NCBI GenBank assembly: GCA_016932255.1
Contig: JAFGDE010000015.1
Span: 29,694 to 93,693 of the forward strand
Source of the DNA: Candidatus Saganbacteria bacterium
Lineage (GTDB): Bacteria > Margulisbacteria > WOR-1 > O2-12-FULL-45-9
Direction of reading: 5' to 3'
DNA: 64,000 bases
Within the stretch, counting starts at the first letter, position 1, and each line of letters starts with the position of its first letter. Both the position numbers and the translations under genes were made by a program. Below the pieces are notes generated by a model that saw only the letters and a program-made list of their open reading frames with translations, was not told where the DNA came from and did no database searches. This document shows, one piece after another, positions 5,468-29,696 of this stretch.

Positions 5468-5470
5468 CTG

Positions 5471-5848
5471 ATGGCAAAACAGGTTAAAATACTGGTCGTG
5501 GATGATGATCTGGCTGTCCTGGAATCATTCAAGATGATCCTGGGCATAAAAGACTACTTTGTCAAGACCGCCAAGGACCTGGCCGAAGCTGTGGCTGCAG
5601 CCAAGGCGGATAAGTTCGATGTCGCCTTCATTGACTTGCGCTTTGAAGGCAAAGAGATCGGCCTGGATATCCTGGCGGAGATCAAAAAGATCGCTCCGGC
5701 AGTTGAATGCATCATCTGTACCGCATTTGCCTCTGACCAAAGCAAGGCAGGCGCGATCGAGCGCGGCGCCCTGGGCTACATCAGCAAGCCCTTTATGATG
5801 GAAACTATTTACGAGCAGATCGATAAGGCTCTGGGAAAGAAGAAGTAG
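5471..5848 (+). CDS. response regulator, receiver domain only (CheY-like)
   Basis: KILVVDDDLAVLE, FDVAFIDLRFEG, ICTAFAS, YISKPF; 125 aa with no output domain; starts 3 nt after the preceding ORF. Confidence 0.85.
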   Translation: MAKQVKILVVDDDLAVLESFKMILGIKDYFVKTAKDLAEAVAAAKADKFDVAFIDLRFEGKEIGLDILAEIKKIAPAVECIICTAFASDQSKAGAIERGALGYISKPFMMETIYEQIDKALGKKK

Positions 5849-5912: not shown

Positions 5913-7493
5913 TCAGTGCTTTCTAGCCGTCCACAAGCCTACCGCTGTTGGTTCATTGTTCACTGAAGCAGTATCGCCTGCCGCATGAGAAGGTTCGAAA
6001 TATTCAAAATGGTCCAAGGAAAACCCGGCCTGAACACAATAAGATCGATAGGCTGCGACATTTTCCAAAGAATCCAATATCTTGAAGGGCGGCCAATGCT
6101 CCGGTGGTACCGGATGTTCGCTTGAGTGTTGAGTAAGCCATTGCAAGTAAGCCTGAAAACTAAAACCAGGCTCAGACATCATTTCTGACAGGATATACTC
6201 TCTTGCCTCTCTGCGAATTTCCCTGGCCAGCCCTTCTCCGATCACATCTTTGTTGAATCCCAGCAATGTCGTTGTCATATGAACAACATCAGAAGCATAT
6301 CTGCTGGCCGTTCGATCAGAGATCTCAGTGCTGACCCTGACCGTGGCCCCGCTTGCCTGAAGTTGGAGCATCTCTTCGGTCATCTGCTGGCCCTGCCTAA
6401 GCTTGAACGTCCGCCTATTACCTTGCGCACTTATCTCCACGGTCCTTTCCCAAGAATCCTTCGACCCGATCTTGACATAAGGCGAGTTCAGGAACGGAAT
6501 AAACGCATCCCAAGCGATCATCTCTCCCCCGGACCCTAAAAGCTTGTGGATCTGCTGGAAAGCCTTAGCCTTGTCCGGCGTATGAGATATCGCAGCACCG
6601 GAAACCACCAGGCTTACACGCCCCAGATACGGGATTAAAACATGATTCGTATCCATATAATAAAATTCTCCAGGCGCCTCAACAATATTCTCCGCCGGAA
6701 AGCCGAATTGTTCAGTTAACGCCTTTTTCAAAGCGGAAACTTTTTTTGCGTCCGTATCGAACAGGATCAGCCTTATTTTACGCAAGCTGTCCAACGTTAT
6801 TTCGCCAGTTCGAGAGCCGGCCATAATTTCCCTGATAATCGGAGCGATCGTTCCTCCAATGCCAACCCCCGCATCGAGAATAACAAAATCATCTAAAGCC
6901 CCGGCAGACTGCCATTGTCTCAACCTCTGCATTGCCTTTTGCCGGATTTTCTCGTTACCAACGGAATAGGCCTTAGTAAGTTGGTTGAGGTCGATATCAT
7001 AATTATCTGTCGTTGCTTGGTCGTTCCACTCGACCCTAAAATCATATTCCCCGATGATCTTCATCGCCTCAACAAAGATGTCCCTGATCTCTGCCATTCC
7101 ACGCCGCTGACTTCCTATCAAGCCGCGCCTTAAGCCTGCGTTCCCCGTTGTCTCGATTACCTTCTGATAGAGCGCGGGGATGTCAACAAAGAATTCCAGG
7201 CTAGGTGCATCTATCCTGGCCAGGGAACCACGACAATTTGCCGGATAATTCCCCGCTGAAAAACCCGGATCGAAACAATTATCCAGAAATTCAATATAGG
7301 GGTCCTTTACCGGCGATTGCGCCCTTTTGCTGGCGACGCCGAAGGAAGGATTGGCCAGTTCTTTGGCCAGATCCCGGATCAACCGGCCCCTGCTAAGCGC
7401 CCGGGTCCGGCCCTGTAAGCTTCCTATATTACTGATCCTTATTTGATTGTTCAATAGTCTTATCTTCATAAATTTGCGCAATAGATGCGCCAT
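5913..7493 (-). CDS. class I SAM-dependent methyltransferase domain protein (526 aa, long flanking extensions)
   Basis: Motif I-like FVILDAGVGIGGT followed by IRLILFDTD and a SGGEMIAWD region. The rest is unassigned. Confidence 0.6.
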   Translation of the reverse strand: MAHLLRKFMKIRLLNNQIRISNIGSLQGRTRALSRGRLIRDLAKELANPSFGVASKRAQSPVKDPYIEFLDNCFDPGFSAGNYPANCRGSLARIDAPSLEFFVDIPALYQKVIETTGNAGLRRGLIGSQRRGMAEIRDIFVEAMKIIGEYDFRVEWNDQATTDNYDIDLNQLTKAYSVGNEKIRQKAMQRLRQWQSAGALDDFVILDAGVGIGGTIAPIIREIMAGSRTGEITLDSLRKIRLILFDTDAKKVSALKKALTEQFGFPAENIVEAPGEFYYMDTNHVLIPYLGRVSLVVSGAAISHTPDKAKAFQQIHKLLGSGGEMIAWDAFIPFLNSPYVKIGSKDSWERTVEISAQGNRRTFKLRQGQQMTEEMLQLQASGATVRVSTEISDRTASRYASDVVHMTTTLLGFNKDVIGEGLAREIRREAREYILSEMMSEPGFSFQAYLQWLTQHSSEHPVPPEHWPPFKILDSLENVAAYRSYCVQAGFSLDHFEYFEPSHAAGDTASVNNEPTAVGLWTARKH

Positions 7494-7553
7494 ATATTAT
7501 CGTCATTTTTCCATCATTATTTCAGGTAAAAGCAAATCCTGCCATAACGGACA

Positions 7554-7562
7554 TGTTATAAT
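7554..7562 (+). promoter_or_regulatory. extended -10 promoter element (TGTTATAAT) upstream of the B12-type rSAM gene
   Basis: tgttataat at 7554-7562 matches TGnTATAAT, 16 nt before ATG 7579. No good -35. Confidence 0.4.
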
Positions 7563-7578
7563 CATTTTGTTGGTCATT

Positions 7579-8910
7579 ATGCCTGACATATCACTTATCA
7601 ATCTGTCTTATAGCTACTGGAACAATTTACCGCTCGGCACACTATCAGTCGCCTCAGCCCTATCAAAACAAGGGATACGCGCCGACCTGCATAATTGCAA
7701 CCTGAACGAAACGGATCTAACCAGTTTCCGCGCTCTAATAAAGAGCTCTGCCGACATAGTTGGCATAGGCTGCTCGATCAGCTCTCTTCCGGATATCATT
7801 TATTATATAAAAAATATCAAGGCAACACATAAAAATAAAATCTTTATTCTGGGCGGCCCAGGCCCCACGATCATGCATAAAGAGATCCTCTCTCATTTCC
7901 CCTTCATTAATATGATCGCATGCGGCGAAGCTGAAGAGATCATTGCCCCGGCCATCAAGATGATCAGATCAAATGATTGGAACTCTCTGCGAAATCTTCC
8001 AGGCATAAGTTTCTCCTTTGATAAGCAGATACACTTGAGCGAGAAACCGGCCTTTATCCGGGACCTTGACTCCCTGCCTCTGCTGGACTATTCGCTGCTC
8101 GATCTGGGCGCATATACGCCGATCTCATACGAAACAGCGCGCGGCTGTATCGGCAAGTGTTCCTATTGCACTCTGAAAGGCAATTTCAGGCAAAAGAGCA
8201 TTGAAAGGATCGGCCTTGAGCTTCGCCAACTCAAGAGATTTGGGGTAAATAAGTTGCGTATCGTTGATAATACTTTCAACGTTAATCGTGATTATATTAA
8301 AACATTTTGTGAATTGACCAAAGCCCTGGGATTACGCTGGTCATGTGAATGCCGGATCGACAACATGGATGAAAGATTGCTCGAACAAATGGGCCGCGGA
8401 GGATGCGAGGAGATCTTTTTCGGCGCTGAATCAGGCTCGGACAAGGTTCTAAGAGATATCCGAAAGGGTTACTTGTCAAAGGACATCGAGGAGATCGTTA
8501 CCTGCGCTCTCAAACATATCCCGAGCGTAACAGCCAGTTTCATGTGGGGCTTTCCTTTCGAAACATTCAATGATTTTCTTTGCACCCTGGAACTCGGCCA
8601 GAAGTTGAATGACAGGGGTGCTTTTAAACTGCTCAATATATTGACCCCGATCCCCGGCAGCTTTCTTTACAGAAAATATAAGAGCTTGCTGGAGTTCTAT
8701 CCGTACAAACTGACGCCCAGTTATATTTGGCCGAGGCTGTATTTTTGGGAGAAAAAAGAAAAGAACCAATTAATAAAACTGATCAAACAGTATCCCGACG
8801 TTTTTCCCTGTTATTATACCTATCGTTCGAAAGGGTTAAAAAAGAAGATCGATCACATCATCAAGGAACGGATCAGCTGCGGCTGGTCGCTTGGCGAAGA
8901 AGAGTTCTAA
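7579..8910 (+). CDS. B12-binding-domain radical SAM protein
   Basis: CIGKCSYC (CxxxCxxC) after a ~190-aa Rossmann-like N-domain (IVGIGCSISS, FILGGPGPT). I prefer ATG 7579 (MPDISLINLSY) over the track start 7447, which would overlap the divergent gene 5913..7493. Confidence 0.8.
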   Translation: MPDISLINLSYSYWNNLPLGTLSVASALSKQGIRADLHNCNLNETDLTSFRALIKSSADIVGIGCSISSLPDIIYYIKNIKATHKNKIFILGGPGPTIMHKEILSHFPFINMIACGEAEEIIAPAIKMIRSNDWNSLRNLPGISFSFDKQIHLSEKPAFIRDLDSLPLLDYSLLDLGAYTPISYETARGCIGKCSYCTLKGNFRQKSIERIGLELRQLKRFGVNKLRIVDNTFNVNRDYIKTFCELTKALGLRWSCECRIDNMDERLLEQMGRGGCEEIFFGAESGSDKVLRDIRKGYLSKDIEEIVTCALKHIPSVTASFMWGFPFETFNDFLCTLELGQKLNDRGAFKLLNILTPIPGSFLYRKYKSLLEFYPYKLTPSYIWPRLYFWEKKEKNQLIKLIKQYPDVFPCYYTYRSKGLKKKIDHIIKERISCGWSLGEEEF

Positions 8911-9989
8911 GAGCCGATTAGCTTGACCAGTTCACGCTGGCAATGATCCAGACATTTTTTTGCCAATGACTTATTGGTCCTCAATGCCTTCCTGGCATAA
9001 CTCCGGCAATGTCTACATCCCCGGCAATCGCTCCTGCAGTCCGGCTTATTTTTTATGAAGTAGTCCAAAAAACCGTCCAGCGCCTGATTATCTATGTAAA
9101 AAACCCTGCCCAGGTCATCCGGCGTTGAAAAACATTCGAATAAATGTTGCAGGTTGCCCCTGAAATTCCCTTTCATATAGGTCTCCACCGTTCGTGGGAG
9201 GTCATAGTCGATCGGTTTGCGGCCTATGATCTTGAAATACTTAACTCCTCGACTAGCATAAGAACGCACATCTTCGGGCCGGATCCAGCCCGCCTTAATC
9301 CTCTCAAGTGGATTGCCCAGCTGCTGCATGGCACAGCGCAATTTTATATAATCATCTTTTGCCGCACCATCTTTCGTACTGGTGCCGTGCGCATTGACGT
9401 TGTAATGATACTGTTCGAAGGGACAATTGTTAACACAAAGAAAATTTACTATCAGCTCTGTGTCAACTTCCCTGCTGGCATGTTCGATAAACTCAAAGTC
9501 CCTGTTCATGTTCTCATCAAGATTGATCCGATCGCACCCTAATGCCTTGAAGGCCATGACCTTATTGATCGAGTCGACCTGGGCAATGACCGAAGCAGTC
9601 ACCTTCTGTTCCAGGAAATGCCTTTTTACCAACTCGATTACAGACGGAACAGCAATCGTGAAACGATCCACGCCGCAATCGATCAGGCTGGCCACGAAGC
9701 CTATTATCCTCTTGACTCCGCGGGGCTGCAGCTCAAGATTGCCCCAGCATGAAGCATTTAAAGTGTAATTGAATTGGATGCTCCGCCGATGCGAATGACG
9801 GATATACTTGCTCAGCTCTTTGAGGTTAATCTTTGGGAGTTTCGAGGCATGGCGGCCGGAACCTATATCAGGCAAGAGAATATTGCCATATGTTTCGATT
9901 ATCTGATCACTAGCATACCTATCGTTCAGAACGGAATATGCATCTAATGTGCGCTTTTCGTAGTCAGCAGGCAGGCAATAATAACTCAT
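8907..9989 (-). CDS. U32-family-like protein (peptidase U32 / UbiU-UbiV-type fold) with Cys-rich C-terminal tail
   Basis: TIM-barrel-like pattern: GVDRFTIAVPSVIELVKRHF, VTASVIAQVDS, ALGCDRINLDENMNRD, ELIVNFLCVNNCPF. This resembles the U32 signature region. C-terminus: CRSDCRGCRHC. Judged by eye only. Confidence 0.45.
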   Translation of the reverse strand: MSYYCLPADYEKRTLDAYSVLNDRYASDQIIETYGNILLPDIGSGRHASKLPKINLKELSKYIRHSHRRSIQFNYTLNASCWGNLELQPRGVKRIIGFVASLIDCGVDRFTIAVPSVIELVKRHFLEQKVTASVIAQVDSINKVMAFKALGCDRINLDENMNRDFEFIEHASREVDTELIVNFLCVNNCPFEQYHYNVNAHGTSTKDGAAKDDYIKLRCAMQQLGNPLERIKAGWIRPEDVRSYASRGVKYFKIIGRKPIDYDLPRTVETYMKGNFRGNLQHLFECFSTPDDLGRVFYIDNQALDGFLDYFIKNKPDCRSDCRGCRHCRSYARKALRTNKSLAKKCLDHCQRELVKLIGS

Positions 9990-10010
9990 CCGATCACCAC
10001 CGGATAAATT

Positions 10011-10043
10011 TAGCCCTTATGCAAAGCCTACGCATAAGGGCTA
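10011..10043 (-). terminator. perfect 12-bp-stem hairpin between the 45-aa ORF and the U32-like gene (possible attenuating terminator)
   Basis: tagcccttatgc (10011-10022) / gcataagggcta (10032-10043), 9-nt loop. Flanks are A/T-rich but there is no long U-tract. Confidence 0.5.
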
Positions 10044-10060
10044 AAATATTTGATTACTCC

Positions 10061-10198
10061 TTACCAGGAACCGCCAACCTTGATAGCCTTATTGACCTGC
10101 TTTTTTAGAGACATTAAATCGGCCTGAACTTTCATCGCAGCTTTCCTAATGTCTTTTTTATTAGTTATTTTCCCTTTGGCTGCCTTTTTAATAGCCAT
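10061..10198 (-). CDS. unannotated 45-aa Lys-rich ORF (candidate precursor peptide or small basic protein)
   Basis: Codon-by-codon reverse translation gives MAIKKAAKGKITNKKDIRKAAMKVQADLMSLKKQVNKAIKVGGSW, then TAA. GAGGAGGTG SD lies 5 nt before the ATG (GGAGG core 7 nt). It has its own promoter. It is below the 60-aa track cutoff. Confidence 0.5.
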   Translation of the reverse strand: MAIKKAAKGKITNKKDIRKAAMKVQADLMSLKKQVNKAIKVGGSW

Positions 10199-10221
10199 AA
10201 TTTCACCTCCTCTTGTCTATC

Positions 10222-10250
10222 ATATTAAGCCTCATTATCTGGATTGTCAA
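10222..10250 (-). promoter_or_regulatory. near-consensus sigma70-type promoter for the 45-aa ORF
   Basis: On the minus strand: TTGACA (10250-10245), 17-nt spacer, TAATAT (10227-10222). It sits just after the stop of the upstream GT gene. Confidence 0.6.
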
Positions 10251-10254
10251 CCTT

Positions 10255-11076
10255 TTAGCCGTTTCTTCCCGGACCCCTCATATATTCCGCATGGCTTTCC
10301 AGCCTGGCGCATATTTGTCTTTTAATTTCTATCTGTTCCCTTGCGCTCAATTTCAGTCTGCGCCTCTTGATCATATTATCCACAGCTGTCATTAGGACTC
10401 GTTTTCTCTCGCTCATGTTAATCTTGATTAATTGATTTTGCTGATGCACCCGCTTCAAATATAAGATCTTATCCAATAGATGGATTGGCCCAATTTCTTC
10501 AAGCTGAAGAAAGATGTTAATATCCCCGCCTATCGCTTTAATGACTTCGCCTTTTCCCTTGAGGTCTATTCCCCTCCAACCCGAGGTTTTCTCATAGGCC
10601 GAACGTTTAATAATATATGGTTGACCAAAATTGATGGGATCGACCGTTGCGCCTTTGTAAAAAGTCCTTGGCTGGAATATATAATTGTGAGCTGGGATAG
10701 CGATATAACGGCCCTGAGCATTAATGGCCCGGAATCTCCCTCTGACCAGCACAGCTTCAGGATGTCTGGCACAATAACGGCTGAAGGCTTTGACCGAATC
10801 CGCCACTAAAAGATCATCATCATCGATCAGGAAAAAGTATTTTGCCGATGTTCTGTCGATTAGCCAGCGTTTCGCCTCACCGCTACCCAAGTCTTTTCCA
10901 GCAAAATGCACCGCGACCTTGGGGCTGGAAAACTCTTTACAAATGGAATATATCTCGGGATCGTTCCTGGCCACCAGAACGGTCAACTTCCAATTGTTCG
11001 CCTTCTGCCTCAGAACGCTCTTGATTGAAGCGATAGACAATCTGCCTTTTCGGGTCACCGGCATAAGAATGTCCAT
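10255..11076 (-). CDS. glycosyltransferase-like protein (GT2-like, DxD)
   Basis: MDILMPVTRKGRLSIASIKSVLRQ..., KLTVLVARND, FFLIDDDDLL. I use ATG 11076, 1 nt after the upstream stop at 11078-11080, rather than the track start 11157. Confidence 0.6.
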   Translation of the reverse strand: MDILMPVTRKGRLSIASIKSVLRQKANNWKLTVLVARNDPEIYSICKEFSSPKVAVHFAGKDLGSGEAKRWLIDRTSAKYFFLIDDDDLLVADSVKAFSRYCARHPEAVLVRGRFRAINAQGRYIAIPAHNYIFQPRTFYKGATVDPINFGQPYIIKRSAYEKTSGWRGIDLKGKGEVIKAIGGDINIFLQLEEIGPIHLLDKILYLKRVHQQNQLIKINMSERKRVLMTAVDNMIKRRRLKLSAREQIEIKRQICARLESHAEYMRGPGRNG

Positions 11077-11077
11077 A

Positions 11078-11974
11078 TCAAACACTTTTTTTACCTCTTT
11101 TGATCCTAAATAAATGATAAATGAACCAGGCCAAGGAACAAATAAAATAGCGGACATGGGACAGCATTTGACAAAATAATTTCCCTAAAAAGATAATTTT
11201 ACGCCGAAGTGAATAGTTCTTTATAATAAAATATATACGATTCCTCATCTCTCTGCGGTTCAACAAAAGCCAGTCAATCTTTATCGGCGCATTGATGTAA
11301 TATCGGCCTTCACTGGAAGGCCGATGAGCAATCTCCAGTTTTGGCTCGACGATTAATTCGTAACCGGCCTGTTTAATGCGATAAAATATGTCCAGGTCTT
11401 CATGGAGCCATTCATAATATTCGTCGAACTGACCGACTTGATCCAAGACCCTTTTCGGCACAACGGCAAAACAGGTGCTCAAATAATCAGAGTCATTGAT
11501 CTGCCGCTTAGCGAATAGATTCTTCCTGTCGGCCAACAGATCCATTGTGCCGTCCCAAGAACGCAGATAAAGGCCCAGATGCTGTATCCTGTCCCTGTTC
11601 CAATAATAAATCTTTCCACTCAGTCCACCAATACTGCCCTTGCCGTCCATTAGCCTGAGAATGGCCGGGAATATCCCTCGGCTCAGGATGACTGCATCAG
11701 AATCAAGAAAGACGATGTATTTCCCGGTTGCTAGGGCTACGGCCTGATTCCTTGCCTTGGCTGGACTGAACGCTTGGCCATTTCTTATAAGCTTGATATC
11801 GAGATGGTCCTTAAAAGTTTCGATCACTTTGATCGAAGCATCGTCGGAAGCATTATCGACAATGACCAGCTCAAGGTCAACATAGCTTTGCTCCAGCACC
11901 GAAAGCAAACATTCTTGCAAGGCGCTGGCACGATTCCGCGTCACAACAATGATCGAAAACATATTGGTTTTCAC
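11078..11974 (-). CDS. family 2 glycosyltransferase
   Basis: FSIIVVTRNRASALQECLLSVLEQSY, LVIVDNASDD, IVFLDSDAV. 4-nt overlap with the upstream gene. Confidence 0.85.
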   Translation of the reverse strand: MKTNMFSIIVVTRNRASALQECLLSVLEQSYVDLELVIVDNASDDASIKVIETFKDHLDIKLIRNGQAFSPAKARNQAVALATGKYIVFLDSDAVILSRGIFPAILRLMDGKGSIGGLSGKIYYWNRDRIQHLGLYLRSWDGTMDLLADRKNLFAKRQINDSDYLSTCFAVVPKRVLDQVGQFDEYYEWLHEDLDIFYRIKQAGYELIVEPKLEIAHRPSSEGRYYINAPIKIDWLLLNRREMRNRIYFIIKNYSLRRKIIFLGKLFCQMLSHVRYFICSLAWFIYHLFRIKRGKKSV

Positions 11975-12816
11975 TTTAAGACGGCCCCTTGTCTTTCTAT
12001 AAGCTTCATGAGAGCCTTTGAATGATTTTTATTGTGGTATCTTTTGGCTAATGCGACACCCCACCCTGGCTTGCCCAAATCATCAAGGACCCTGATGACC
12101 TGCCGGAAGTATGTCAAGCTTACCTTCTCTTTCTTTTTCATCATTTGCGACAGACGTTTGGCGTATACCCGACGGCAGTTATCCGCTAAAAGTCTCTCTT
12201 CTTTAAGGCAGATGTTCCCGCCATGGATGTTATGCTTACCGACAAGTTTTGGCACATGGCGGAACGGATAAGCATCGGAAAGCCGCAAAAGGAACTCCCA
12301 ATCCTCAAAAATCGTCAATGTTTCATCAAAAACACCAATGCGCTCAACACAGGCCCGGCGATGGAGAATGACAAGGGGATAGAGATAGTTCCCTCGCTCG
12401 AGTTTTGCCCGCCGATGCTTCGGACGAACGACCTGAAGCCTTGTGCCGTAATCGATATGGCAATCACCATATACAAGCCCAACCTCCGACTTATCTTCTA
12501 GTGCCGCAACGAGATATTTTAAATGGTCAGGATAATATTCATCGTCATCGTCACAATAAGCTATATACTGTCCTGATGAAGCTCTTATCGCAGCATTCCT
12601 GCAGGCCGCTGCTCCCGAATGTCGTTTCTTGATCAATCTTATTCTGCTGTCTTTATATTTTTTCAATTCCCTCTCGGTTGCTTGCTCTGGCCCGTCTAGA
12701 ACCACTAAAAGTTCCCAATTATCGTAGGACTGCGCCAGAACACTGCTGACCGCACGACCGATCAAATCAGACCTTTTGAATGTCGGCATGACAATGCTGA
12801 CCAACGCGCGCTTCAT
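11971..12816 (-). CDS. family 2 glycosyltransferase
   Basis: VSIVMPTFKRSDLIGRAVSSVLAQSY, LLVVLDGPE, IAYCDDDDEYYPDHL. 4-nt overlap with the upstream rSAM gene. Confidence 0.85.
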   Translation of the reverse strand: MKRALVSIVMPTFKRSDLIGRAVSSVLAQSYDNWELLVVLDGPEQATERELKKYKDSRIRLIKKRHSGAAACRNAAIRASSGQYIAYCDDDDEYYPDHLKYLVAALEDKSEVGLVYGDCHIDYGTRLQVVRPKHRRAKLERGNYLYPLVILHRRACVERIGVFDETLTIFEDWEFLLRLSDAYPFRHVPKLVGKHNIHGGNICLKEERLLADNCRRVYAKRLSQMMKKKEKVSLTYFRQVIRVLDDLGKPGWGVALAKRYHNKNHSKALMKLIERQGAVLK

Positions 12817-13859
12817 TTATCTCCGCCTCGGCCCGACCGGCCACTCTTGCTCTGAACTTCAAGATATCTCTTTAGATTATCGATAAAGAAACAATCATGG
12901 ATACAGTAGCACTTCGTAATTCTGCGCCTCATCTCTTCGGCAGCTTTTGATCGCCAAACCTTGGGAAAACAAAGATCATGATCACGCACATTACCAACAG
13001 GCCGAGTGAACTCACAAAGCGCCACCGCGCCATCAGCATAAAGGATCCCCTGATCCTGGCCCGCTGAACAGCTAGAAAAGATCGGCTTGCCGGTCTTGAG
13101 CATCTTTATCTGATAAGTCAACCGCTTGAACAGGTGTGACCTATCCCGATATTTCCCCTTTTTCCGGAAATACCTGTCCATCTTCTCAAGTTTTTTTATC
13201 GGCGGCAATTTCAACTTGGTCGGCTTGAGGTCGGCAATCGTTTCTTCATTCAGGCCCCATATCGTCCCTGGTATCTGGCGCATTATCATGAGATGCTGCT
13301 CCACTCCGATCTCTTTAGCCAGATACTCCGATAACTCCTCCATCTCATCGATGTTGCCCTCATGGACAACCGTCAAGACAGCAACACCTAGATTCGTCGA
13401 CTGCCGCTGCAGTTCTTTCATCAGAGAAACCGTCTCAAGCGCAGCGCTGAACGATCCCGGAACAGATCGAATGCTATCATGCGTGGGAGCAAATCCATCA
13501 ATCGAGACCTGCACTAATATCGGACAGGCACAATCATCAACGATCTTGGACATTTGCCGGGCAATCTCTCCGGACATCAAACCATTAGTACAAATAAAGA
13601 TCTCCTTGGAACCATTGAGCTTATAGAACGCTTTTGCGATCTGCGGCAGATCCTCCCTGAGGAAAGGCTCGCCGCCGGTCAGACTTAATAGCTCCAAGGG
13701 CGCCTGAAACGAAGCTGCTATTTTTTTGATCTCCGATAGGGACAATTCTCTGTTCGAACGTGTCTTGTTCGTTGGCACAAAGCAGTGCTTGCATTTCAGG
13801 TTGCACCTATCGGTCACAAAAAAACCCAATTTTTTGAGGATTACGTCCATTTTATTCAC
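12813..13859 (-). CDS. radical SAM protein with C-terminal SPASM/twitch-like Cys cluster
   Basis: CNLKCKHC near the N-terminus, LTGGEPFL. C-terminal: SSCSAGQDQGILYADGAVALC...GNV...CYCIHDC. Confidence 0.85.
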   Translation of the reverse strand: MNKMDVILKKLGFFVTDRCNLKCKHCFVPTNKTRSNRELSLSEIKKIAASFQAPLELLSLTGGEPFLREDLPQIAKAFYKLNGSKEIFICTNGLMSGEIARQMSKIVDDCACPILVQVSIDGFAPTHDSIRSVPGSFSAALETVSLMKELQRQSTNLGVAVLTVVHEGNIDEMEELSEYLAKEIGVEQHLMIMRQIPGTIWGLNEETIADLKPTKLKLPPIKKLEKMDRYFRKKGKYRDRSHLFKRLTYQIKMLKTGKPIFSSCSAGQDQGILYADGAVALCEFTRPVGNVRDHDLCFPKVWRSKAAEEMRRRITKCYCIHDCFFIDNLKRYLEVQSKSGRSGRGGDK

Positions 13860-15216
13860 GCAATAACCTTACAAATTCCCTGGTATTAGAACCATGGGCC
13901 TTATAATAATCCATGAAATCCATGGGCCTATCTTTGATATTGTACGCCTCGGGATCAAGATGCATTGGCGCAGCCGGTTCAATTAGGACATCAAGGTGAA
14001 ATATCTGGTCAACATGCCTATATCTGCCTTTTATGAATCGAATCATCTTCCTGGTCATTCGTTTTGCGCTCTCGGGCTGGCCAGGCATTTCCTTTATGAA
14101 ATACAGGATCGAACGTATCCCTTTAGCTTCAAAATAATCCAGGGCTCGGTAAAATTGATCGTTCGAATAGTAGTGACCCTTGATCTTCTTCCTGAATGAT
14201 TCCGAGCCGCTTTCCGGTGAAAGAGATATATCACTGCCAGGCAGGAAGGTGCGCTCAAACTCGTCGATCAATCTCTTTGAGGGGATGCCCCATGATTCAA
14301 AATCAGCATATATTTTTAGCCCTGCCCGGCGTATACGCCGGAACAATTCAATATAATAACCTGGTCTTCCGGGACAGGGGTCGAAACAGAAATGAAAGAT
14401 CCTGATCTTATAAGTACGGTAATATTTTTGAATATCATGGACTACGCTGTTTATGTCGCGAAAGATCACTTCCTTCCTGCCAAAAAGCATTTTTTGACTT
14501 GAGCGTGACCCGCCGCAGTATGCGCAATCTACGCTGCATCCCCGGCCCAGAGGCACCACAAAGGACCTAACGGGATGCCCGTCAAGCAGGGAGCCGCCGG
14601 GGGACAAAGCCAGTGCATCCAAATAGTTGTCATATTTGTAGATCAGATCAAAATCAGTAAAAGAGAAAGAGTCATTGTCCTTCTTACTAACGACATAGGA
14701 CAGCTTGTTGACAATTATTTTGCCTGAGCTATTTCTCCAGGCGAGATTCGGCACAGAAGCCAAGTCATCAGAACCTCTTTTGCTCTTCAGCAACAGCTCA
14801 TACAGGGGCCGCTCACCATCGCCCCGGATCACGGCATCGACAAAATGGAACCTGGTCAAGATCTGTTCATAAAAGAACGTGGCAGAAAAGCCCCCCATGA
14901 CCACCCTGGCATTAGGTTTTAGCCTTTTTATCATTTCCACTACTTTTATGGTGTGATAGGTTTGATAATGCCACTGCAACGAAACCGCTATTAAAGATAC
15001 ATCGGTCAAGCTGTTCAAATATTCTTTGAGCGAAAAGGCAGGGTCCTGCCTGACCTCGCTTCCTACATTCAGTATCTCAACGCGACATTGCCGCTTCTTT
15101 AAATAAGAGGCCATGGAAAAGAAACCGTGAGGCAGCTTGAGAACGGTTGGTTCCTTGCGAGAGAACCTTGGAATATGCAGCAGAAGACAATCGATCTTGC
15201 GTTTTCTTTTGGTCAT
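13852..15216 (-). CDS. B12-binding-domain radical SAM protein
   Basis: GCSVDCAYCGG after an N-domain with DCLLLHIP and VVMGGFSATF. I prefer ATG 15216 (MTKRKRKIDCLLL) over the track start 15288. Confidence 0.8.
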   Translation of the reverse strand: MTKRKRKIDCLLLHIPRFSRKEPTVLKLPHGFFSMASYLKKRQCRVEILNVGSEVRQDPAFSLKEYLNSLTDVSLIAVSLQWHYQTYHTIKVVEMIKRLKPNARVVMGGFSATFFYEQILTRFHFVDAVIRGDGERPLYELLLKSKRGSDDLASVPNLAWRNSSGKIIVNKLSYVVSKKDNDSFSFTDFDLIYKYDNYLDALALSPGGSLLDGHPVRSFVVPLGRGCSVDCAYCGGSRSSQKMLFGRKEVIFRDINSVVHDIQKYYRTYKIRIFHFCFDPCPGRPGYYIELFRRIRRAGLKIYADFESWGIPSKRLIDEFERTFLPGSDISLSPESGSESFRKKIKGHYYSNDQFYRALDYFEAKGIRSILYFIKEMPGQPESAKRMTRKMIRFIKGRYRHVDQIFHLDVLIEPAAPMHLDPEAYNIKDRPMDFMDYYKAHGSNTREFVRLLRE

Positions 15217-15337
15217 AAATATATCTTTTCTCGGGTGAATGCCTAACGCCTTATAGATTATATCACACTCAATAGACCATAAAAACAACGACAGACCCTC
15301 GCTTTCGCCCGATATTTAAGGGAGAGCGCTCACTGGT

Positions 15338-15366
15338 TTGACTTCAACGTTATTTAGAGTTATATT
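15338..15366 (+). promoter_or_regulatory. sigma70-type promoter for the divergent rSAM pair 15399..18211
   Basis: TTGACT (15338-15343), 17-nt spacer, TATATT (15361-15366), 32 nt before ATG 15399. Confidence 0.55.
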
Positions 15367-15398
15367 GTTCACAGCAAAATGAATGCCAGGCAAGTATC

Positions 15399-17042
15399 AT
15401 GCATCTATTACTGATCGCGCCTCGTTGCCCTCCGAACCAGAGGACCATACCGCTAGGCTTGGCATATATCTCATCCTATCTGAAAAAGGCTGGCAAGAGC
15501 GTTGATTGCCTTGACCTAAACCACTCCGAAGAACCTGTCGCCCAAATCCTACAAAGCTGTTTTAGAAAGAAGCGCTATTCTATTATCTGTTGTGGCGGCC
15601 TTTCGATCTACTACCATCAGATCAAAGAGCTTGTTGAACTCTCACGCAAATATTGCCCCGGAGCAAAAATAGTTCTAGGCGGGGCCTTGGTCTCTTGTGA
15701 GCCCGAGTTGATGCTTGATTCACTTAGGCCGGACTACATTGTGATTGGCGAAGGGGAGCAAACAATCCTGGACCTGATCGACCACCTGGAAAATAAACAA
15801 CCTGTTGAGACAGTGAAAGGGCTCGCTTTCAGGAACAGTCATGGTAAATGCATGCTGTCCCTACCCCGGCCAAGACTGACCGACTTGGATGCCCTGCCGA
15901 TACCCGACTATGAAGCCTTCGGCTACGAACAGTATCTGGACAACATGCATCCGAGCGATATTGAGTTCTACGATATCTTCGATCATCCCCGCGTCCATAG
16001 CATCGTCGGCAGCCGGGATTGTCCTTTCCGGTGCACTTTCTGTTACCATGTTCTGGGCGGAAAATACACCCAAAGATCGATAAAATCAATAATGGACGAG
16101 CTTGAATATGTGGTCAAAAAATATCGGATCAATGTTATTTCCTTTTATGATCAGCTTTTCGCCAAGGACCCTGAGCGCGTCCTCGAGCTATGTTCTAAGA
16201 TCAAGCCTTTCCTTAACTCACTGCCATGGGATTGTAGATGGTTCGTGGCCGGTCTCAGGGTGCCGGATATTAGCGATCACTTGATAAAAGCAATGATCGA
16301 CGCTGGCTGCTTCATGATCTCGTTCGGCCTAGAAAGCTACAGCATTGACATCCTAAAAAGCTATAAGAAACGGACGACCCCGGAACAAATAGAGCGGGCG
16401 GTCCGAACCACTTTCAACAACAGGATCAGCTTGTGGGCGAATTTTGTCTTTTTTGATATTGCCGAAACAAAGCACACAGCTCAGATAACGCTGGATTACT
16501 GGATAAAGAACAGTCAGATTGGTTTGGAACTGACTCATTTGCGCCCCTTCCCCGGCACGGCTATCTACAAGCACTGCTTGGCCAAAGGAACTATTAAAGA
16601 CAAGCTGAAATTCGTCGCCGATGCCAGCCAGCAGTGTTTTAATACGAGCGACCAATTGACTGAGGAAGAATTCAATGAGGTCAGACATAGGATCGCTGAA
16701 GCCTGGGCTCTTCACAGAAAATATGCTGTACCGGAATCTTTGCAGCGTTCAAGCGACGGCACAATATGTTTTACCATAGAATGCCCTCATTGCAAAAGCT
16801 CCATTAAATACAGCAATTATCTATACATCTGGCCGGGAATGAAAATATATTGCCGCCGGTGTCGCAAGACCTTTTTCATGATATCCACCAGACGCAAGCT
16901 TATAAGCCTATCATTACTTTGCATCATTGCCAAAATTGTGCCGGGCAGACTTTGGCAATACTGGAACGGTCTGACCCGCGAATACTTGAGAAAAACTTTC
17001 GACTATGATGACGACAAGATCGAGATATTGTCAGACGAATAG
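15399..17042 (+). CDS. B12-binding-domain radical SAM protein with C-terminal zinc-ribbon and hydrophobic anchor
   Basis: MHLLLIAPR, IVLGGALVS, DCPFRCTFC. C-terminal ECPHC...YCRRC is followed by the helix LISLSLLCIIAKIV. Confidence 0.8.
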   Translation: MHLLLIAPRCPPNQRTIPLGLAYISSYLKKAGKSVDCLDLNHSEEPVAQILQSCFRKKRYSIICCGGLSIYYHQIKELVELSRKYCPGAKIVLGGALVSCEPELMLDSLRPDYIVIGEGEQTILDLIDHLENKQPVETVKGLAFRNSHGKCMLSLPRPRLTDLDALPIPDYEAFGYEQYLDNMHPSDIEFYDIFDHPRVHSIVGSRDCPFRCTFCYHVLGGKYTQRSIKSIMDELEYVVKKYRINVISFYDQLFAKDPERVLELCSKIKPFLNSLPWDCRWFVAGLRVPDISDHLIKAMIDAGCFMISFGLESYSIDILKSYKKRTTPEQIERAVRTTFNNRISLWANFVFFDIAETKHTAQITLDYWIKNSQIGLELTHLRPFPGTAIYKHCLAKGTIKDKLKFVADASQQCFNTSDQLTEEEFNEVRHRIAEAWALHRKYAVPESLQRSSDGTICFTIECPHCKSSIKYSNYLYIWPGMKIYCRRCRKTFFMISTRRKLISLSLLCIIAKIVPGRLWQYWNGLTREYLRKTFDYDDDKIEILSDE

Positions 17043-17056
17043 GATGTTCTGAAATA

Positions 17057-18211
17057 ATGGCAAGACGGGTCCTCAGGCAGGACATCATCAAGTCAAGGGC
17101 TTTTTATGATCCCGCTAGTCTCTCCCCAAGCGAAGAACTGCACTACCTGCAATGGGTCGCCTCAAAGACCAACACGCTTGTTACCGGTTCCAAATGCTCC
17201 TGTCAATGCCTTTTTTGTTTTAGGAAGTATTATCCCAAGGAATCAAAGATATTTTATTTGCCGGAAGTAAAACTGGGACAACTGCGACGAATCTTCCCCT
17301 ACCTCCGTAAAGACCGAGCAATAAGGATTGGCATGTTCGGTAACATCATGGACGGTGATTTTTTTGACCACGACCAGGCCATGCCCATATTAGAGAGCTT
17401 ACGCCAAAGATTCCCCCAGACTGAATTAGTGATCAATTCCTCCAGAGGCACAAATCTAAATAAACCAGCCATTCGGAACATGGCCGATTATAAGAACATT
17501 CTGTTACGCTTACAATTTGTCAGTGCGAACAAAAAGAACAGGGATATGCTCGTAAAAAGACCCAGCACGGATACTGAGATAACAAGCGTTTTAGGCTGGC
17601 TGAGGAAGTACCAGTTGCCTTTCGAAATTGAACTGGTCGCTATCCCTCATTTGCTCGGCTGGAAAGATATCGAACGCACATTTTTCTTTCTTGACGATTA
17701 TGCCCCGGTCCGGATCAAAGTCTACCTGTTCTCTTTTACAAAATACTACATAAAAGAGCTTACTTTCAGCAACAACAAGAAACTTTTAAGAGAATTCTAT
17801 TCTCTGGTGAATAAAGTCAGCAATAAAATCGGTACAAGGATAGACCCCTTCCCACGACCTGTCAGTAAAGGCGACGTTCAGCCCGATCTCTTGAGGGTCA
17901 AGCAGATAAGAAGAACATATAAAGGTAGAATTCTTTTTCTTGTCTCCCAAATGGCCTATCCAGCAATAAAAAAACACATATCCGATACAGATGGCATTAA
18001 AGTCAAAATGGCTAAGAACCTATTCTTTGGCGGGAATATCTCTGTAGCTGGATTATTGACTGCAGAAGATTATTTGCAAGCGGCCGGAAAAGAAGAATTC
18101 GACGTCCTGGTGGTTTCAAGCAAACCATTCAACTATGCCGGGTATGATCTCAAGGGTGATCACAAGCGCCTGCTGAAACAAAGGCTCGGCAAAAAAGTGC
18201 TTTATATTTAA
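17057..18211 (+). CDS. radical SAM protein, DUF512-like C-terminus
   Basis: CSCQCLFCF contains CxxxCxxC. The C-terminal FFGGNISVAGLLTAEDY resembles the DUF512 (TIGR03279-type) motif. No PDZ domain seen. Confidence 0.55.
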   Translation: MARRVLRQDIIKSRAFYDPASLSPSEELHYLQWVASKTNTLVTGSKCSCQCLFCFRKYYPKESKIFYLPEVKLGQLRRIFPYLRKDRAIRIGMFGNIMDGDFFDHDQAMPILESLRQRFPQTELVINSSRGTNLNKPAIRNMADYKNILLRLQFVSANKKNRDMLVKRPSTDTEITSVLGWLRKYQLPFEIELVAIPHLLGWKDIERTFFFLDDYAPVRIKVYLFSFTKYYIKELTFSNNKKLLREFYSLVNKVSNKIGTRIDPFPRPVSKGDVQPDLLRVKQIRRTYKGRILFLVSQMAYPAIKKHISDTDGIKVKMAKNLFFGGNISVAGLLTAEDYLQAAGKEEFDVLVVSSKPFNYAGYDLKGDHKRLLKQRLGKKVLYI

Positions 18212-18345
18212 TTGGTCCGGCCCTTCCCCTGCTTCAACCCTGACAGTTTCTTGATCGCCTTGCTCAAGGAAACATTGGCTGACTTGAGATCGGTGTAGAT
18301 CGAAACGATCTTCTTTTGCGAATGGCTCTGCTGCTTCTTTGCCAT
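18208..18345 (-). CDS. unannotated 45-aa Lys-rich ORF, possible paralogue of 10061..10198
   Basis: Codon-by-codon translation gives MAKKQQSHSQKKIVSIYTDLKSANVSLSKAIKKLSGLKQGKGRTN, then TAA. AGGAGGG SD overlaps the stop of the porin gene. It shares MA.KK and DLxS(x6)KAIK with the other 45-aa ORF. Confidence 0.45.
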   Translation of the reverse strand: MAKKQQSHSQKKIVSIYTDLKSANVSLSKAIKKLSGLKQGKGRTN

Positions 18346-20691: not shown

Positions 20692-20713
20692 TGCGGCTAT
20701 TATAGCATAAAAT

Positions 20714-20742
20714 TTGACGGCTCCAGGCGTCAATGATATAAT
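20714..20742 (+). promoter_or_regulatory. consensus-like promoter immediately upstream of the DUF1015 gene
   Basis: TTGACG (20714-20719), 17-nt spacer, TATAAT (20737-20742). GTG 20752 follows 9 nt later. Confidence 0.5.
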
Positions 20743-29690: not shown

Positions 29691-29696
29691 TTAACT

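What the first reader, a model, noticed from the sequence alone, without database searches (positions are those of the whole stretch)
5913..18345. Island of five radical-SAM enzymes, three glycosyltransferases, a methyltransferase and a U32-like protein that fits no pathway I can name
SEEN: five proteins carry a CxxxCxxC triad. These are CIGKCSYC (7579..8910), CNLKCKHC plus a SPASM-like C-terminal Cys cluster (12813..13859), CSVDCAYC (13852..15216), CPFRCTFC (15399..17042) and CSCQCLFC (17057..18211). Three of them have a B12-binding-type N-domain. Three GT2-type genes sit between them with 4-8 nt overlaps or a 1-nt gap, which suggests translational coupling. Adjacent genes are a U32-like protein, a 526-aa SAM methyltransferase, an ABC exporter without a C39 domain (3438..5249) and a receiver-only regulator. 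ESTABLISHED: SPASM rSAMs are mostly peptide maturases. B12-rSAMs methylate or rearrange unactivated carbons. The combination of rSAM-SPASM, GT2, methyltransferase and peptidase acting on a short peptide is the logic of mycofactocin. INFERENCE: the product is an exported, heavily tailored molecule derived from a peptide or a glycan. I cannot assign it to a known system.
Basis: partly seen in the sequence, partly recalled or inferred. Interest (0 to 1): 0.8.

Follow-up and report, generated by a model that had tools for sequence, protein, structure and literature searches.

The report
Radical-SAM, sugar and peptide gene island
This is a real, rare, horizontally acquired gene cluster in an uncultured anaerobe (Candidatus Saganbacteria) that most likely turns the tail of a 45-residue peptide into a methylated, hydroxylated and sugar-decorated molecule of an undescribed type.

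Summary
Pfam confirms five radical-SAM enzymes (three with B12 domains, one with a SPASM domain), three GT2 glycosyltransferases, a class I methyltransferase and a U32-fold protein. No curated NCBIfam model reaches its cut-off, so the island belongs to no named pathway.

- **One relative.** Searches of 5.8 billion proteins with two island proteins found one close relative. A complete 20 kb contig of it (L102) keeps nine genes in the same order at 43-70% identity. Its GC is 0.44 against 0.62-0.65 in unrelated housekeeping flanks. The window island is 0.46 against 0.54.
- **A missed small gene.** A 45-aa ORF at 10061-10198(-) lies between the last GT2 and the U32 gene. It has its own promoter-like site, a strong ribosome-binding site and a hairpin. 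Its last seven residues (IKVGGSW) are identical in the relative, while the rest has diverged.
- **U32 protein.** It belongs to a rare Cys-rich subfamily that otherwise sits in NRPS or PKS/NRPS clusters.
- **Sugar link.** The SPASM and B12 enzymes belong to a widespread uncharacterised module that is sometimes fused to GT2 domains.

Best reading (about 0.5): a peptide-derived glycosylated product with mycofactocin-like logic, but not mycofactocin. Main rival (about 0.3): glycan or glycolipid tailoring without a peptide substrate. The ABC exporter, receiver and SLH protein are not conserved with the island.

The parts
5913..7493 (-). Class I SAM-dependent methyltransferase, 526 aa (NCBI calls it 489 aa). 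It belongs to a very rare family. Its place in the conserved unit is uncertain: the relative has an unrelated 267-aa methyltransferase instead.
   Evidence: Methyltransf_12 scores 18.6 bits. An exhaustive HMMER search found only 54 relatives among 1.84 billion representatives. Of the 17 aligned family members, 15 hit methyltransferase models. No hit in L102.
7579..8910 (+). B12-binding radical SAM enzyme A. It converges on the U32 gene with a 4-nt overlap.
   Evidence: B12-binding 49 bits and Radical_SAM 69.7 bits. Best NCBIfam hit is ApyD at 162 bits, far below the 750 cut-off. 51% identical, in the same position and orientation, in L102.
8907..9989 (-). U32-fold protein with conserved Cys clusters, candidate oxygen-independent hydroxylase.
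   Evidence: Pfam U32. AF2 model pLDDT 91.9; best fold match 5d88. Invariant C185, C189 and C219, and near-invariant CX3CX2CX2C at 318-328. 58% identical in L102. Homologues at 31-40% identity lie in NRPS or PKS/NRPS clusters.
10009..10045 (-). Stem-loop just after the small peptide gene and before the U32 gene; possible partial terminator or attenuator.
   Evidence: Folding energy -24.3 kcal/mol, z -3.2. The relative has a hairpin followed by a T-run at the same place (-27.7 kcal/mol, z -3.5).
10061..10198 (-). 45-aa Lys-rich ORF MAIKKAAKGKITNKKDIRKAAMKVQADLMSLKKQVNKAIKVGGSW; candidate precursor or scaffold peptide whose core is the C-terminal IKVGGSW.
   Evidence: GAGGAGG ribosome-binding site. 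A 48-aa ORF sits at the same position in L090 and L102 with an identical last heptapeptide, a diverged remainder and a Ser codon change TCC to AGC. Shuffle test p<0.0005.
10222..10250 (-). Sigma-70-like promoter match in front of the small peptide gene.
   Evidence: TTGACA-17-TAATAT, 10 of 12 matches. The L090 sequence shows TTGACA, then 18 nt, then TATCAT upstream of its small ORF (read).
10255..11085 (-). GT2 glycosyltransferase c.
   Evidence: Glycos_transf_2 32 bits. 51% identical in L102.
11078..11974 (-). GT2 glycosyltransferase b.
   Evidence: Glycos_transf_2 91 bits. Best NCBIfam hit is MftF at 81.6 bits, below the 280 cut-off. 56-58% identical in the relative.
11971..12816 (-). GT2 glycosyltransferase a.
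   Evidence: Glycos_transf_2 101 bits. 43% identical in L102.
12813..13859 (-). Radical SAM enzyme with a SPASM/twitch-type auxiliary Cys domain and no N-terminal peptide-recognition domain.
   Evidence: Pfam Radical_SAM, Fer4_12 and SPASM. Invariant C264, C282, C317, C319 and C323. AF2 model pLDDT 90; best folds SkfB, BlsE, CteB. 57% identical in L102. Relatives at 30-35% identity lie next to, or are fused to, GT2.
13852..15216 (-). B12-binding radical SAM enzyme B, first gene of the minus-strand operon; it overlaps the SPASM gene by 8 nt.
   Evidence: B12-binding and Radical_SAM. Best NCBIfam hit is TIGR04190 at 197.6 bits, below the 500 cut-off. 52% identical in L102.
15399..17042 (+). B12-binding radical SAM enzyme C, with a C-terminal zinc-ribbon-like CxxC...CxxC and one predicted membrane helix.
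   Evidence: Pfam. Hydrophobic segment 501-519. 70% identical in the relative, the best conserved protein of the island.
17057..18211 (+). Fifth radical SAM enzyme with a DUF512 C-domain. It is not conserved: the relative has an unrelated 454-aa radical SAM gene on the other side of enzyme C, likewise convergent with a small ORF.
   Evidence: DUF512 30.8 bits and Radical_SAM 26 bits. No similarity to the L002 454-aa radical SAM protein. No hit in L102.
18208..18345 (-). Membership is uncertain.
   Evidence: AGGAGGG ribosome-binding site. Weak similarity to s45b and to the relative's 89-aa ORF, which ends in ..NISW (p about 0.03 each).
3438..5848 (+). MsbA-like ABC exporter, 73-aa membrane protein and receiver-only regulator. 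These are neighbours, probably not part of the conserved unit.
   Evidence: Pfam and NCBIfam. GC about 0.50. Absent from the complete relative cluster L102.

Best explanation
The island is a horizontally acquired biosynthetic gene cluster. It most likely builds a tailored, glycosylated product on the C-terminus of a ribosomal peptide.

**Shown.**
- Nine genes are co-conserved in order in two unrelated genomic contexts. They are three B12-radical-SAM enzymes, one SPASM radical-SAM enzyme, three GT2s, one U32-fold protein with conserved Cys clusters and one small ORF.
- The small ORF has a promoter-like site, a strong ribosome-binding site and a downstream hairpin.
- Its C-terminal heptapeptide IKVGGSW is invariant while the Lys-rich remainder has diverged.

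**Inferred mechanism.**
1. The 45-aa peptide is the substrate or scaffold.
2. The U32 Fe-S protein hydroxylates an aromatic ring without O2, most plausibly the terminal Trp indole. All characterised U32 hydroxylations act on aromatic or heteroaromatic rings.
3. The three GT2s build a short glycan on a hydroxyl, either the Ser or the new hydroxy-Trp. The relative's cluster carries RmlC/RmlD-type and epimerase/dehydratase-type sugar-nucleotide genes, which suggests a 6-deoxyhexose.
4. The SPASM enzyme and B12 enzyme B act on the glycoconjugate made by the GT2s, for example by C-methylation, epimerisation or another radical rearrangement of a sugar. Their relatives are fused to GT2 domains.
5. 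B12 enzymes A and C add further C-methylations or rearrangements at unactivated carbons.
6. A class I methyltransferase adds O- or N-methyl groups.

No conserved protease or exporter is present, so release and export are left to other genes or do not occur.
For: - **Domain content:**
- **Co-conservation and order:** L002 plus L090 and the complete contig L102. Identities run from 43% to 70%.
- **Foreign origin:** GC is 0.437 against 0.62-0.65 in the flanks of L102, and 0.46 against 0.54 in the window. The flanking genes differ: EF-P and fumarase in L102, receiver and SLH protein in the window.
- **Small ORF:** position, ribosome-binding site, promoter match and hairpin are conserved. IKVGGSW is identical despite synonymous and Ser-codon-family changes. 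Similarity is significant against shuffles (p<0.0005).
- **U32 subfamily:** the fold is confirmed and the Cys clusters are conserved. The homologues looked up lie in five different NRPS or PKS/NRPS clusters and one radical-SAM/peptidase/ABC cluster.
- **U32 proteins as Fe-S, O2-independent hydroxylases of aromatic rings:** PMC6747719 and PMC10990095.
- **Peptide-flavoured best hits:** B12 enzyme A hits ApyD (a RiPP enzyme) and the methyl-coenzyme M reductase glutamine C-methyltransferase. GT2_b hits MftF.
- **GT2 coupling:** GT2-radical SAM/SPASM and B12-radical SAM-GT2 fusions, and 15 GT2 proteins among the neighbours of the 16 closest loci.
Against: - No peptide-recognition (RRE/PqqD) domain was detected in any protein or extension.
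- The SPASM enzyme starts directly with the radical SAM core.
- The conserved set holds no leader peptidase and no peptide exporter.
- The wider SPASM family (27-35% identity) sits with GT2, GT-C (PMT_2), sulfotransferase and sugar-nucleotide genes. No shared small peptide was found there.
- The peptide is known from only two clusters, so its conservation rests on one comparison.
- A DNA-pattern scan of the metagenome collection for ..[AV]IKVGGSW-stop found only chance matches.
- Structural neighbours of the SPASM enzyme include both peptide-acting and sugar-acting enzymes.
Confidence: 0.5

Rival explanations
1. The island tailors a glycan or glycolipid and no peptide is the substrate. The GT2s build an oligosaccharide on a lipid or cell-envelope acceptor. 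The radical SAM enzymes methylate, epimerise or rearrange the sugars, as HpnI/HpnJ do on hopanoids and calditol synthase does on archaeal lipids. The small conserved ORF would then be an accessory or regulatory protein.
For: - GT2-radical SAM/SPASM and B12-radical SAM-GT2 gene fusions.
- GT2 lies next to the SPASM gene in nearly all of the 16 closest loci. Sugar-nucleotide, flippase-type (Polysacc_synt), GDSL and GT-C genes are nearby.
- RmlC/RmlD-type and epimerase/dehydratase-type sugar-nucleotide genes lie inside the relative's cluster.
- B12 enzyme C has a predicted membrane helix.
- Its best NCBIfam hits are HpnJ and a lipid-biosynthesis B12-radical SAM enzyme.
- Radical SAM enzymes acting on lipid head-group sugars are known (PMC13459092).
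- No RRE or leader peptidase was found.
Against: - Pfam found no initiating phosphoglycosyl transferase, flippase, polymerase, ligase or lipid-synthesis gene in the island or in the relative's cluster.
- The GT2s have no predicted membrane helices.
- The U32 subfamily otherwise sits in NRPS or PKS/NRPS clusters, meaning peptide-like substrates.
- This reading does not explain the invariant C-terminal heptapeptide of a small gene with its own promoter-like site, placed inside the operon.
Confidence: 0.3
2. The island is a chance neighbourhood of unrelated operons, or an accretion of radical SAM paralogues, without a common product.
For: Four transcription directions are present. The periphery differs between the two clusters: the methyltransferase and the fifth radical SAM enzyme are non-orthologous, and the sugar-nucleotide genes occur only in the relative.
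Against: Nine genes keep order and orientation at 43-70% identity in two organisms with unrelated flanks. Uniform low GC and sharp boundaries set the cluster apart. Four junctions in the minus-strand operon overlap or abut.
Confidence: 0.07
3. The island is a diverged member of an already characterised system: mycofactocin, streptide/tryglysin-type Lys-Trp peptides, hopanoid side-chain tailoring, capsule or O-antigen, or an anti-phage defence system.
For: Generic similarity only: MftF 81.6 bits, MftC 53.8, WgkB 73.9, HpnJ 117, WcaA 78 and pVip 62.
Against: - Every curated model is far below its cut-off.
- No MftB, MftD or MftE was found, and no Wzx, Wzy or initiating transferase.
- No squalene-hopene cyclase appeared among the window genes scanned.
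- PADLOC gives only radical-SAM-domain hits.
- The peptide tail IKVGGSW matches no NCBIfam precursor model.
Confidence: 0.03

Closest known systems
Mycofactocin biosynthesis (MftA-F, MftM)
   Same: Both have a small ribosomal peptide with a conserved C-terminal Gly-small residue-aromatic tail (..GVY against ..GSW). Both have a SPASM radical SAM enzyme, GT2 oligoglycosylation and SAM-dependent methylation (PMC7491314, PMC9679996). MftF is the best NCBIfam hit of GT2_b.
   Different: The MftC and MftF models score 53.8 and 81.6 bits against cut-offs of 265 and 280. There is no MftB (RRE), MftD or MftE. The island instead has three B12-radical SAM enzymes, a U32 Fe-S protein and three GT2s. Its host is an anaerobic candidate phylum rather than Actinobacteria.
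Streptide and tryglysin (WGK) type RiPPs with Lys-Trp cross-links made by SPASM radical SAM enzymes
   Same: A short peptide carries Lys and Trp a few residues apart (K-V-G-G-S-W here), next to a SPASM-type radical SAM enzyme. WgkB is among the top NCBIfam hits.
   Different: WgkB scores 73.9 bits against a 650 cut-off, and only over the generic radical SAM core. The enzyme has no RRE. The Lys-Trp spacing differs from KGDGW (my recollection of the published streptide motif). The GT2, B12 and U32 genes have no counterpart in those systems.
UbiU/UbiV, TrhP and RlhA: U32-family Fe-S, O2-independent (prephenate-dependent) hydroxylases
   Same: The protein has the U32 TIM-barrel fold and conserved Cys clusters. 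Its homologues often occur as tandem pairs, like the UbiU-UbiV heterodimer. The host is an anaerobe.
   Different: The Cys pattern is CX3CX29C plus a C-terminal CX3CX2CX2C, not the canonical CX6CX15CX3/4C (PMC6747719). TrhP scores 22 bits against a 534 cut-off. The genomic context is natural-product clusters, not quinone or RNA modification. No activity has been shown.
Hopanoid side-chain tailoring (HpnH, HpnI, HpnJ, HpnP/R) and archaeal calditol synthase
   Same: These combine GT2 with radical SAM and B12-radical SAM enzymes that remodel a sugar already attached to an acceptor (PMC13459092). HpnJ is the best NCBIfam hit of B12 enzyme C.
   Different: All scores are far below cut-off (117 against 577.6). 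Pfam found no cyclase or lipid genes among the genes scanned. A conserved peptide gene is present.
Glycocins (SunS-type GT2 acting on ribosomal peptides)
   Same: A GT2 enzyme is encoded next to a small ribosomal peptide that has a Ser in a Gly-rich stretch.
   Different: The SunS model scores 21.6 bits against a 350 cut-off. The peptide has no Cys-rich helical hairpin. There is no C39 exporter. Three GT2s and five radical SAM enzymes are present.

Membership tests
Mycofactocin system | MftC equivalog model TIGR03962 at or above 265 bits | tested here: not met
   53.8 bits.
Mycofactocin system | MftF equivalog model TIGR03965 at or above 280 bits | tested here: not met
   GT2_b 81.6 bits and GT2_a 70 bits.
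Mycofactocin system | MftA-type precursor ending in ..GVY, together with MftB (RRE), MftD and MftE genes | tested here: not met
   The peptide ends in IKVGGSW and matches no NCBIfam precursor model. No PqqD, FMN-dehydrogenase or creatininase domain was found in the island.
RiPP cluster (general) | A ribosomally encoded precursor gene inside the cluster | tested here: inconclusive
   A conserved 45/48-aa ORF has a ribosome-binding site, promoter match, hairpin and invariant tail. Only two instances exist, and no modification has been shown.
RiPP cluster (general) | A peptide-recognition element (RRE) or leader peptidase | tested here: not met
   No PqqD/RRE or peptidase family was found in any protein or extension. 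The ABC exporter lacks C39 and is not conserved.
SPASM/twitch radical SAM subfamily | A CX3CX2C core plus a C-terminal auxiliary Cys domain | tested here: met
   Radical_SAM 77.8 bits; SPASM 24.6 bits (cut-off 21.5). Invariant C264, C282, C317, C319 and C323. Fold neighbours are SkfB, BlsE, CteB and anSME.
Cobalamin-dependent (class B) radical SAM enzymes | An N-terminal B12-binding Rossmann domain plus a radical SAM core | tested here: met
   Three proteins pass both Pfam cut-offs. Cobalamin binding itself cannot be tested here.
U32 Fe-S oxygen-independent hydroxylases (UbiU/V, TrhP, RlhA) | U32 fold | tested here: met
   Pfam U32. Foldseek best hit 5d88, E 7e-12, target TM 0.73.
U32 Fe-S oxygen-independent hydroxylases (UbiU/V, TrhP, RlhA) | The canonical four-Cys motif CX6CX15CX3/4C, or membership of a characterised subfamily | tested here: not met
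   The conserved Cys residues are C185-X3-C189-X29-C219 plus C318-X3-C-X2-C-X2-C328 (motif from PMC6747719). TrhP scores 22 bits against 534.
U32 Fe-S oxygen-independent hydroxylases (UbiU/V, TrhP, RlhA) | Prephenate-dependent hydroxylase activity | not testable with these tools
   Needs an in vivo or in vitro assay.
Streptide/WGK Lys-Trp cross-linked RiPPs | WgkB or StrB family model above cut-off | tested here: not met
   WgkB 73.9 bits against 650, over the core domain only.
Hopanoid side-chain pathway | HpnH, HpnI and HpnJ equivalog models above cut-off | tested here: not met
   HpnJ 117.3 against 577.6; HpnH 52.5 against 225; HpnI 19.7 against 310.
Capsule, O-antigen or EPS locus | An initiating phosphoglycosyl transferase, a Wzx/Wzy or ABC-2 exporter, and named GT equivalogs | tested here: not met
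   None was found in the island or in the L102 cluster. WcaA scores 77.8 bits against 382 (NF007453), or 495.75 for TIGR04017.
Anti-phage defence systems (PADLOC) | A match to a defence-system protein model beyond a shared domain | tested here: not met
   Only radical-SAM-domain matches to pVip (62 bits) and PDC-M51A (61 bits). Seven of the ten proteins have no hit.

The most novel reading that the evidence does not exclude
The island may be a new class of ribosomal-peptide-derived, glycosylated small molecule or cofactor made by anaerobes. In this reading the invariant C-terminal ..GGSW of a scaffold peptide is hydroxylated on the indole by a U32-type, oxygen-independent Fe-S hydroxylase. I found no paper describing such an enzyme in natural-product biosynthesis. 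The hydroxyl is then glycosylated by three GT2s. The sugars or peptide are remodelled by a SPASM/B12 radical SAM pair, and that pair belongs to a widespread, uncharacterised, GT2-fused sugar-modifying module.
Probability: 0.3. Interest if true: 0.85.

Novelty: new variant of a known kind. Interest (0 to 1): 0.66.

Why it matters
If the peptide reading is right, three testable leads follow.

1. **A new peptide-derived glycoconjugate.** It would come from a candidate phylum with no cultured members, and it would follow mycofactocin-like logic with different chemistry.
2. **A missing enzyme type.** A rare U32 Fe-S subfamily sits inside NRPS, PKS/NRPS and this cluster in anaerobes. It could be the oxygen-free hydroxylase of natural-product biosynthesis.
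3. **A new kind of sugar chemistry.** A GT2-SPASM-B12 radical SAM module is found from Woesearchaeota to Proteobacteria and is sometimes a single fused polypeptide. The fusions argue for radical chemistry on freshly transferred sugars, and I found no paper describing this module.

If instead the island tailors a glycan, points 2 and 3 still stand.

Tried and rejected
- **Metagenome DNA scan.** I scanned the metagenome collection for a back-translated [AV]IKVGGSW-stop. The six hits were all chance matches with no island proteins nearby.
- **Small-ORF searches.** A profile of the three small ORFs run over every small ORF of the loci held at that point, a search over all 93 loci for ORFs with a similar tail, and an all-against-all comparison of intergenic small ORFs found nothing with this tail outside the window and its relative. 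The only other conserved small ORF is an unrelated 68-aa family in Chloroflexota.
- **Peptide-recognition domains.** Pfam found no PqqD/RRE in any full protein or in nine N- or C-terminal extensions, even at E up to 5.
- **The fifth radical SAM enzyme.** The window's DUF512-type enzyme and the relative's 454-aa radical SAM protein are not homologous beyond the CX3CX2C motif.
- **Fold search of the SPASM model.** Peptide-acting enzymes (SkfB, CteB, anSME, PqqE) and sugar-acting ones (BlsE, DesII, BtrN) are interleaved. It cannot decide the substrate.
- **Mobility signatures.** There is no tRNA and no Rfam family in the window, and no flanking repeat around either copy of the island.
- **Defence-system reading.** PADLOC gives only generic radical SAM hits.
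- **Literature.** Searches for U32 with RiPP or NRPS, for Saganbacteria with radical SAM, and for GT2-radical SAM fusions returned nothing describing this cluster or module.
- **Methyltransferase homologues.** The word-based search found only the protein itself. The exhaustive search found 54 distant relatives.
- **Exact look-up of the 45-aa peptide.** It is on record only on the same Logan contig.

Full report

- Pfam gives Radical_SAM for four of the five proteins above its 29.5-bit cut-off. The fifth, 17057-18211, scores 26 bits and passes DUF512.
- B12-binding domains are found in 7579-8910, 13852-15216 and 15399-17042. SPASM matches 12813-13859 at 24.6 bits (cut-off 21.5).
- Glycos_transf_2 matches the three GT genes. 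Peptidase_U32 matches 8907-9989.
- The 526-aa protein is only a weak methyltransferase hit. An exhaustive HMMER search found 54 distant relatives among 1.84 billion representatives. Of 17 aligned family members (the window protein plus 16 of those relatives), 15 hit class I methyltransferase models.
- The gene overlaps are as described. The ABC exporter lacks C39, and the 125-aa protein is receiver-only.
- The window comes from a Candidatus Saganbacteria metagenome-assembled genome. The proteins are identical to MBN2058106.1 and MBN2058101.1 on a 181 kb NCBI contig.

**2. Does it belong to a known pathway?** No.

- Against NCBIfam every island protein scores far below the curated cut-offs.

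| Protein | Best-matching model | Score (bits) | Cut-off (bits) |
|---|---|---|---|
| B12 enzyme A | ApyD | 162 | 750 |
| B12 enzyme B | TIGR04190 | 198 | 500 |
| B12 enzyme C | HpnJ | 117 | 578 |
| GT2_b | MftF | 82 | 280 |
| SPASM enzyme | MftC (best hit is TIGR04133, 79 bits against 425) | 54 | 265 |
| SPASM enzyme | WgkB | 74 | 650 |
| GT2_a | WcaA | 78 | 382 |

- PADLOC gives only radical-SAM-domain matches.
- Rfam and tRNA scans of the window are empty.

**3. Is the gene set co-conserved?** Yes, but only once.

- The SPASM protein and the U32 protein each have a single close relative among 5.8 billion proteins, at 56-58% identity.
- These first appeared on fragments: L002, L090 and L092. 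A cluster-member look-up then led to a complete 20.3 kb contig, L102.
- Between EF-P and fumarase, L102 carries these genes in order:
  - a 454-aa radical SAM protein, a 35-aa ORF and an 89-aa ORF;
  - B12 enzyme C (70% identical to the window protein);
  - three sugar-nucleotide genes of RmlC/RmlD and epimerase/dehydratase type;
  - a 267-aa methyltransferase;
  - B12 enzyme B (52%), the SPASM enzyme (57%), GT2_a (43%), GT2_b (56%) and GT2_c (51%);
  - a 48-aa ORF, the U32 protein (58%) and the convergent B12 enzyme A (51%).
- The L102 cluster has GC 0.437, against 0.62-0.65 in its flanks. The window island has 0.46, against 0.54.
- So this is one mobile unit that landed in two different genomes. 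No integrase or flanking repeat was found.
- Not conserved are the ABC exporter, the 73-aa protein, the receiver, the SLH protein, the 526-aa methyltransferase and the DUF512-type radical SAM enzyme. The last two are replaced by non-homologous proteins of the same broad class.

**4.

- Between GT2_c and the U32 gene lies a 45-aa ORF at 10061-10198(-): MAIKKAAKGKITNKKDIRKAAMKVQADLMSLKKQVNKAIKVGGSW.
- It has a TTGACA-17-TAATAT promoter match and a GAGGAGG ribosome-binding site. A stable hairpin follows it (-24.3 kcal/mol, z -3.2).
- The relative has a 48-aa ORF in the same place: MGKAARKKVSFKAGVKTKTISKKGVGAAGAKFQNVMKTHPVIKVGGSW. It has the same kind of promoter match, ribosome-binding site and terminator hairpin.
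- The last seven residues are identical. The Ser codon has changed family (TCC to AGC) and one Gly codon differs synonymously, while the rest of the ORF and the surrounding DNA have diverged.
- The similarity beats all 2,000 shuffles.
- This is the signature of a translated small gene whose C-terminus is under strong selection, as in MftA or PqqA.
It resembles s45b and the relative's 89-aa ORF (ending ..NISW) only marginally (p about 0.03 each).

**5. The U32-like protein.**

- An AlphaFold2 model (pLDDT 91.9) matches the U32 protein Mk0906 best.
- The family is rare: 81 clusters in the protein database.
- It has invariant C185, C189 and C219, and a near-invariant C-terminal CX3CX2CX2C.
- Six homologues on five different NRPS or PKS/NRPS clusters were looked up, and in two of those clusters they form tandem pairs. 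One further homologue lies in a cluster with radical SAM genes, an S8 peptidase and ABC genes.
- Characterised U32 proteins (UbiU/V, TrhP, RlhA) are linked to O2-independent, prephenate-dependent hydroxylation of aromatic rings. [quoted passage not shown]
- I therefore read this gene as a tailoring hydroxylase, not a peptidase. This is an inference. Its Cys pattern differs from the canonical motif.

**6. The SPASM/B12/GT2 core.**

- Relatives of the SPASM enzyme (27-35% identity) were fetched from 80 species genomes across many phyla.
- In the 16 closest loci there are 15 GT2 proteins among the neighbours. Extra radical SAM and B12 proteins, sugar-nucleotide enzymes and GDSL hydrolases are also present.
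- L019 and L024 encode single polypeptides that join GT2 to the radical SAM/SPASM enzyme. In L024 the next gene is a B12-radical SAM-GT2 fusion.
- GT-C (PMT_2) and sulfotransferase genes occur in others.
- These fusions argue that the radical SAM pair works on what the GT2 makes. No shared small peptide accompanies this wider module.
- The fold search of the SPASM model interleaves peptide-acting and sugar-acting enzymes. The protein has no N-terminal recognition domain.

**7. Synthesis.**

- Two lines point to a peptide: the invariant tail of a small gene with its own promoter-like site inside the operon, and a U32 subfamily otherwise tied to NRPS products.
- Two lines point to sugar chemistry: the GT2 fusions and the sugar-nucleotide genes in the relative.
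- The two sets are compatible in a mycofactocin-like scheme: a peptide tail is modified, hydroxylated, glycosylated, and the glycan is itself tailored.
- I give this scheme about 0.5.
- A purely glycan or glycolipid reading gets about 0.3. It lacks initiating transferase, flippase, polymerase and lipid genes, and it leaves the peptide unexplained.
- A chance assemblage gets about 0.07, and a diverged known system about 0.03.
- Export through the neighbouring ABC gene is not supported by conservation.

**8. Novelty.**

- The general kind, a radical-SAM-rich tailoring cluster that is probably RiPP-like, is known.
- This gene combination, the peptide tail, the U32 subfamily in natural-product clusters and the GT2-fused radical SAM module appear in none of the papers my searches returned.
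- Only two instances exist, so every inference about the peptide rests on one comparison.

Noticed in passing
window 32478-33785 (+) and 33778-35166 (+): A protein joins an N-terminal HypC/HupF domain to a radical SAM domain. It is followed by a BATS-plus-radical SAM protein (HydE/BioB-like). Both lie just downstream of a NiFe-hydrogenase gene set at 27769-31773. I have not seen this fusion described.
   Followed up: no
window 18358-20733 (-): A 791-aa protein has a signal-peptide-like N-terminus, SLH domains and a C-terminus ending in ..ALSVTF. It looks like an OmpM-type outer-membrane tether or porin. It is adjacent to the island but absent from the relative's cluster.
   Followed up: partly
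L024 8435-11062 and 11059-13242; L019 8873-11020: True gene fusions: GT2 joined to radical SAM/SPASM (875 and 715 aa), and B12-radical SAM joined to GT2 (727 aa), in Elusimicrobiales and Rhodospirillaceae genomes. The module looks uncharacterised.
   Followed up: partly
L084 8835-11146; L086 10001-12361; L099, L100, L101: The Cys-rich U32 subfamily sits inside NRPS or PKS/NRPS clusters, in two cases as tandem pairs reminiscent of UbiU/UbiV.
   Followed up: partly
L031 8992-9282, L036 12417-12623, L037 1141-1347: A conserved ORF of about 68 aa (MSSF[SN]NPH.MYLF..KNGKKKLAYG.SPEDAL..) lies near B12-radical SAM and SPASM genes in three Chloroflexota genomes. Its function is unknown.
   Followed up: no
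L002 8896-8898: In one metagenome copy of the relative's cluster, B12 enzyme B carries an in-frame TAG where the window protein has Phe. The gene is intact in L102 and L103. This is probably a sequencing error or a strain-level nonsense mutation.
   Followed up: yes
window 917-2368 (-) and 2386-3207 (-): Two adjacent ORFs (483 and 273 aa) upstream of the ABC exporter have no significant Pfam or NCBIfam match.
   Followed up: no
L102 2518-2787 (-): The relative's 89-aa ORF next to B12 enzyme C also ends in Ser-Trp (..NISW). Three of the four small ORFs in the two clusters therefore end in SW. This may point to a second substrate peptide.
   Followed up: partly
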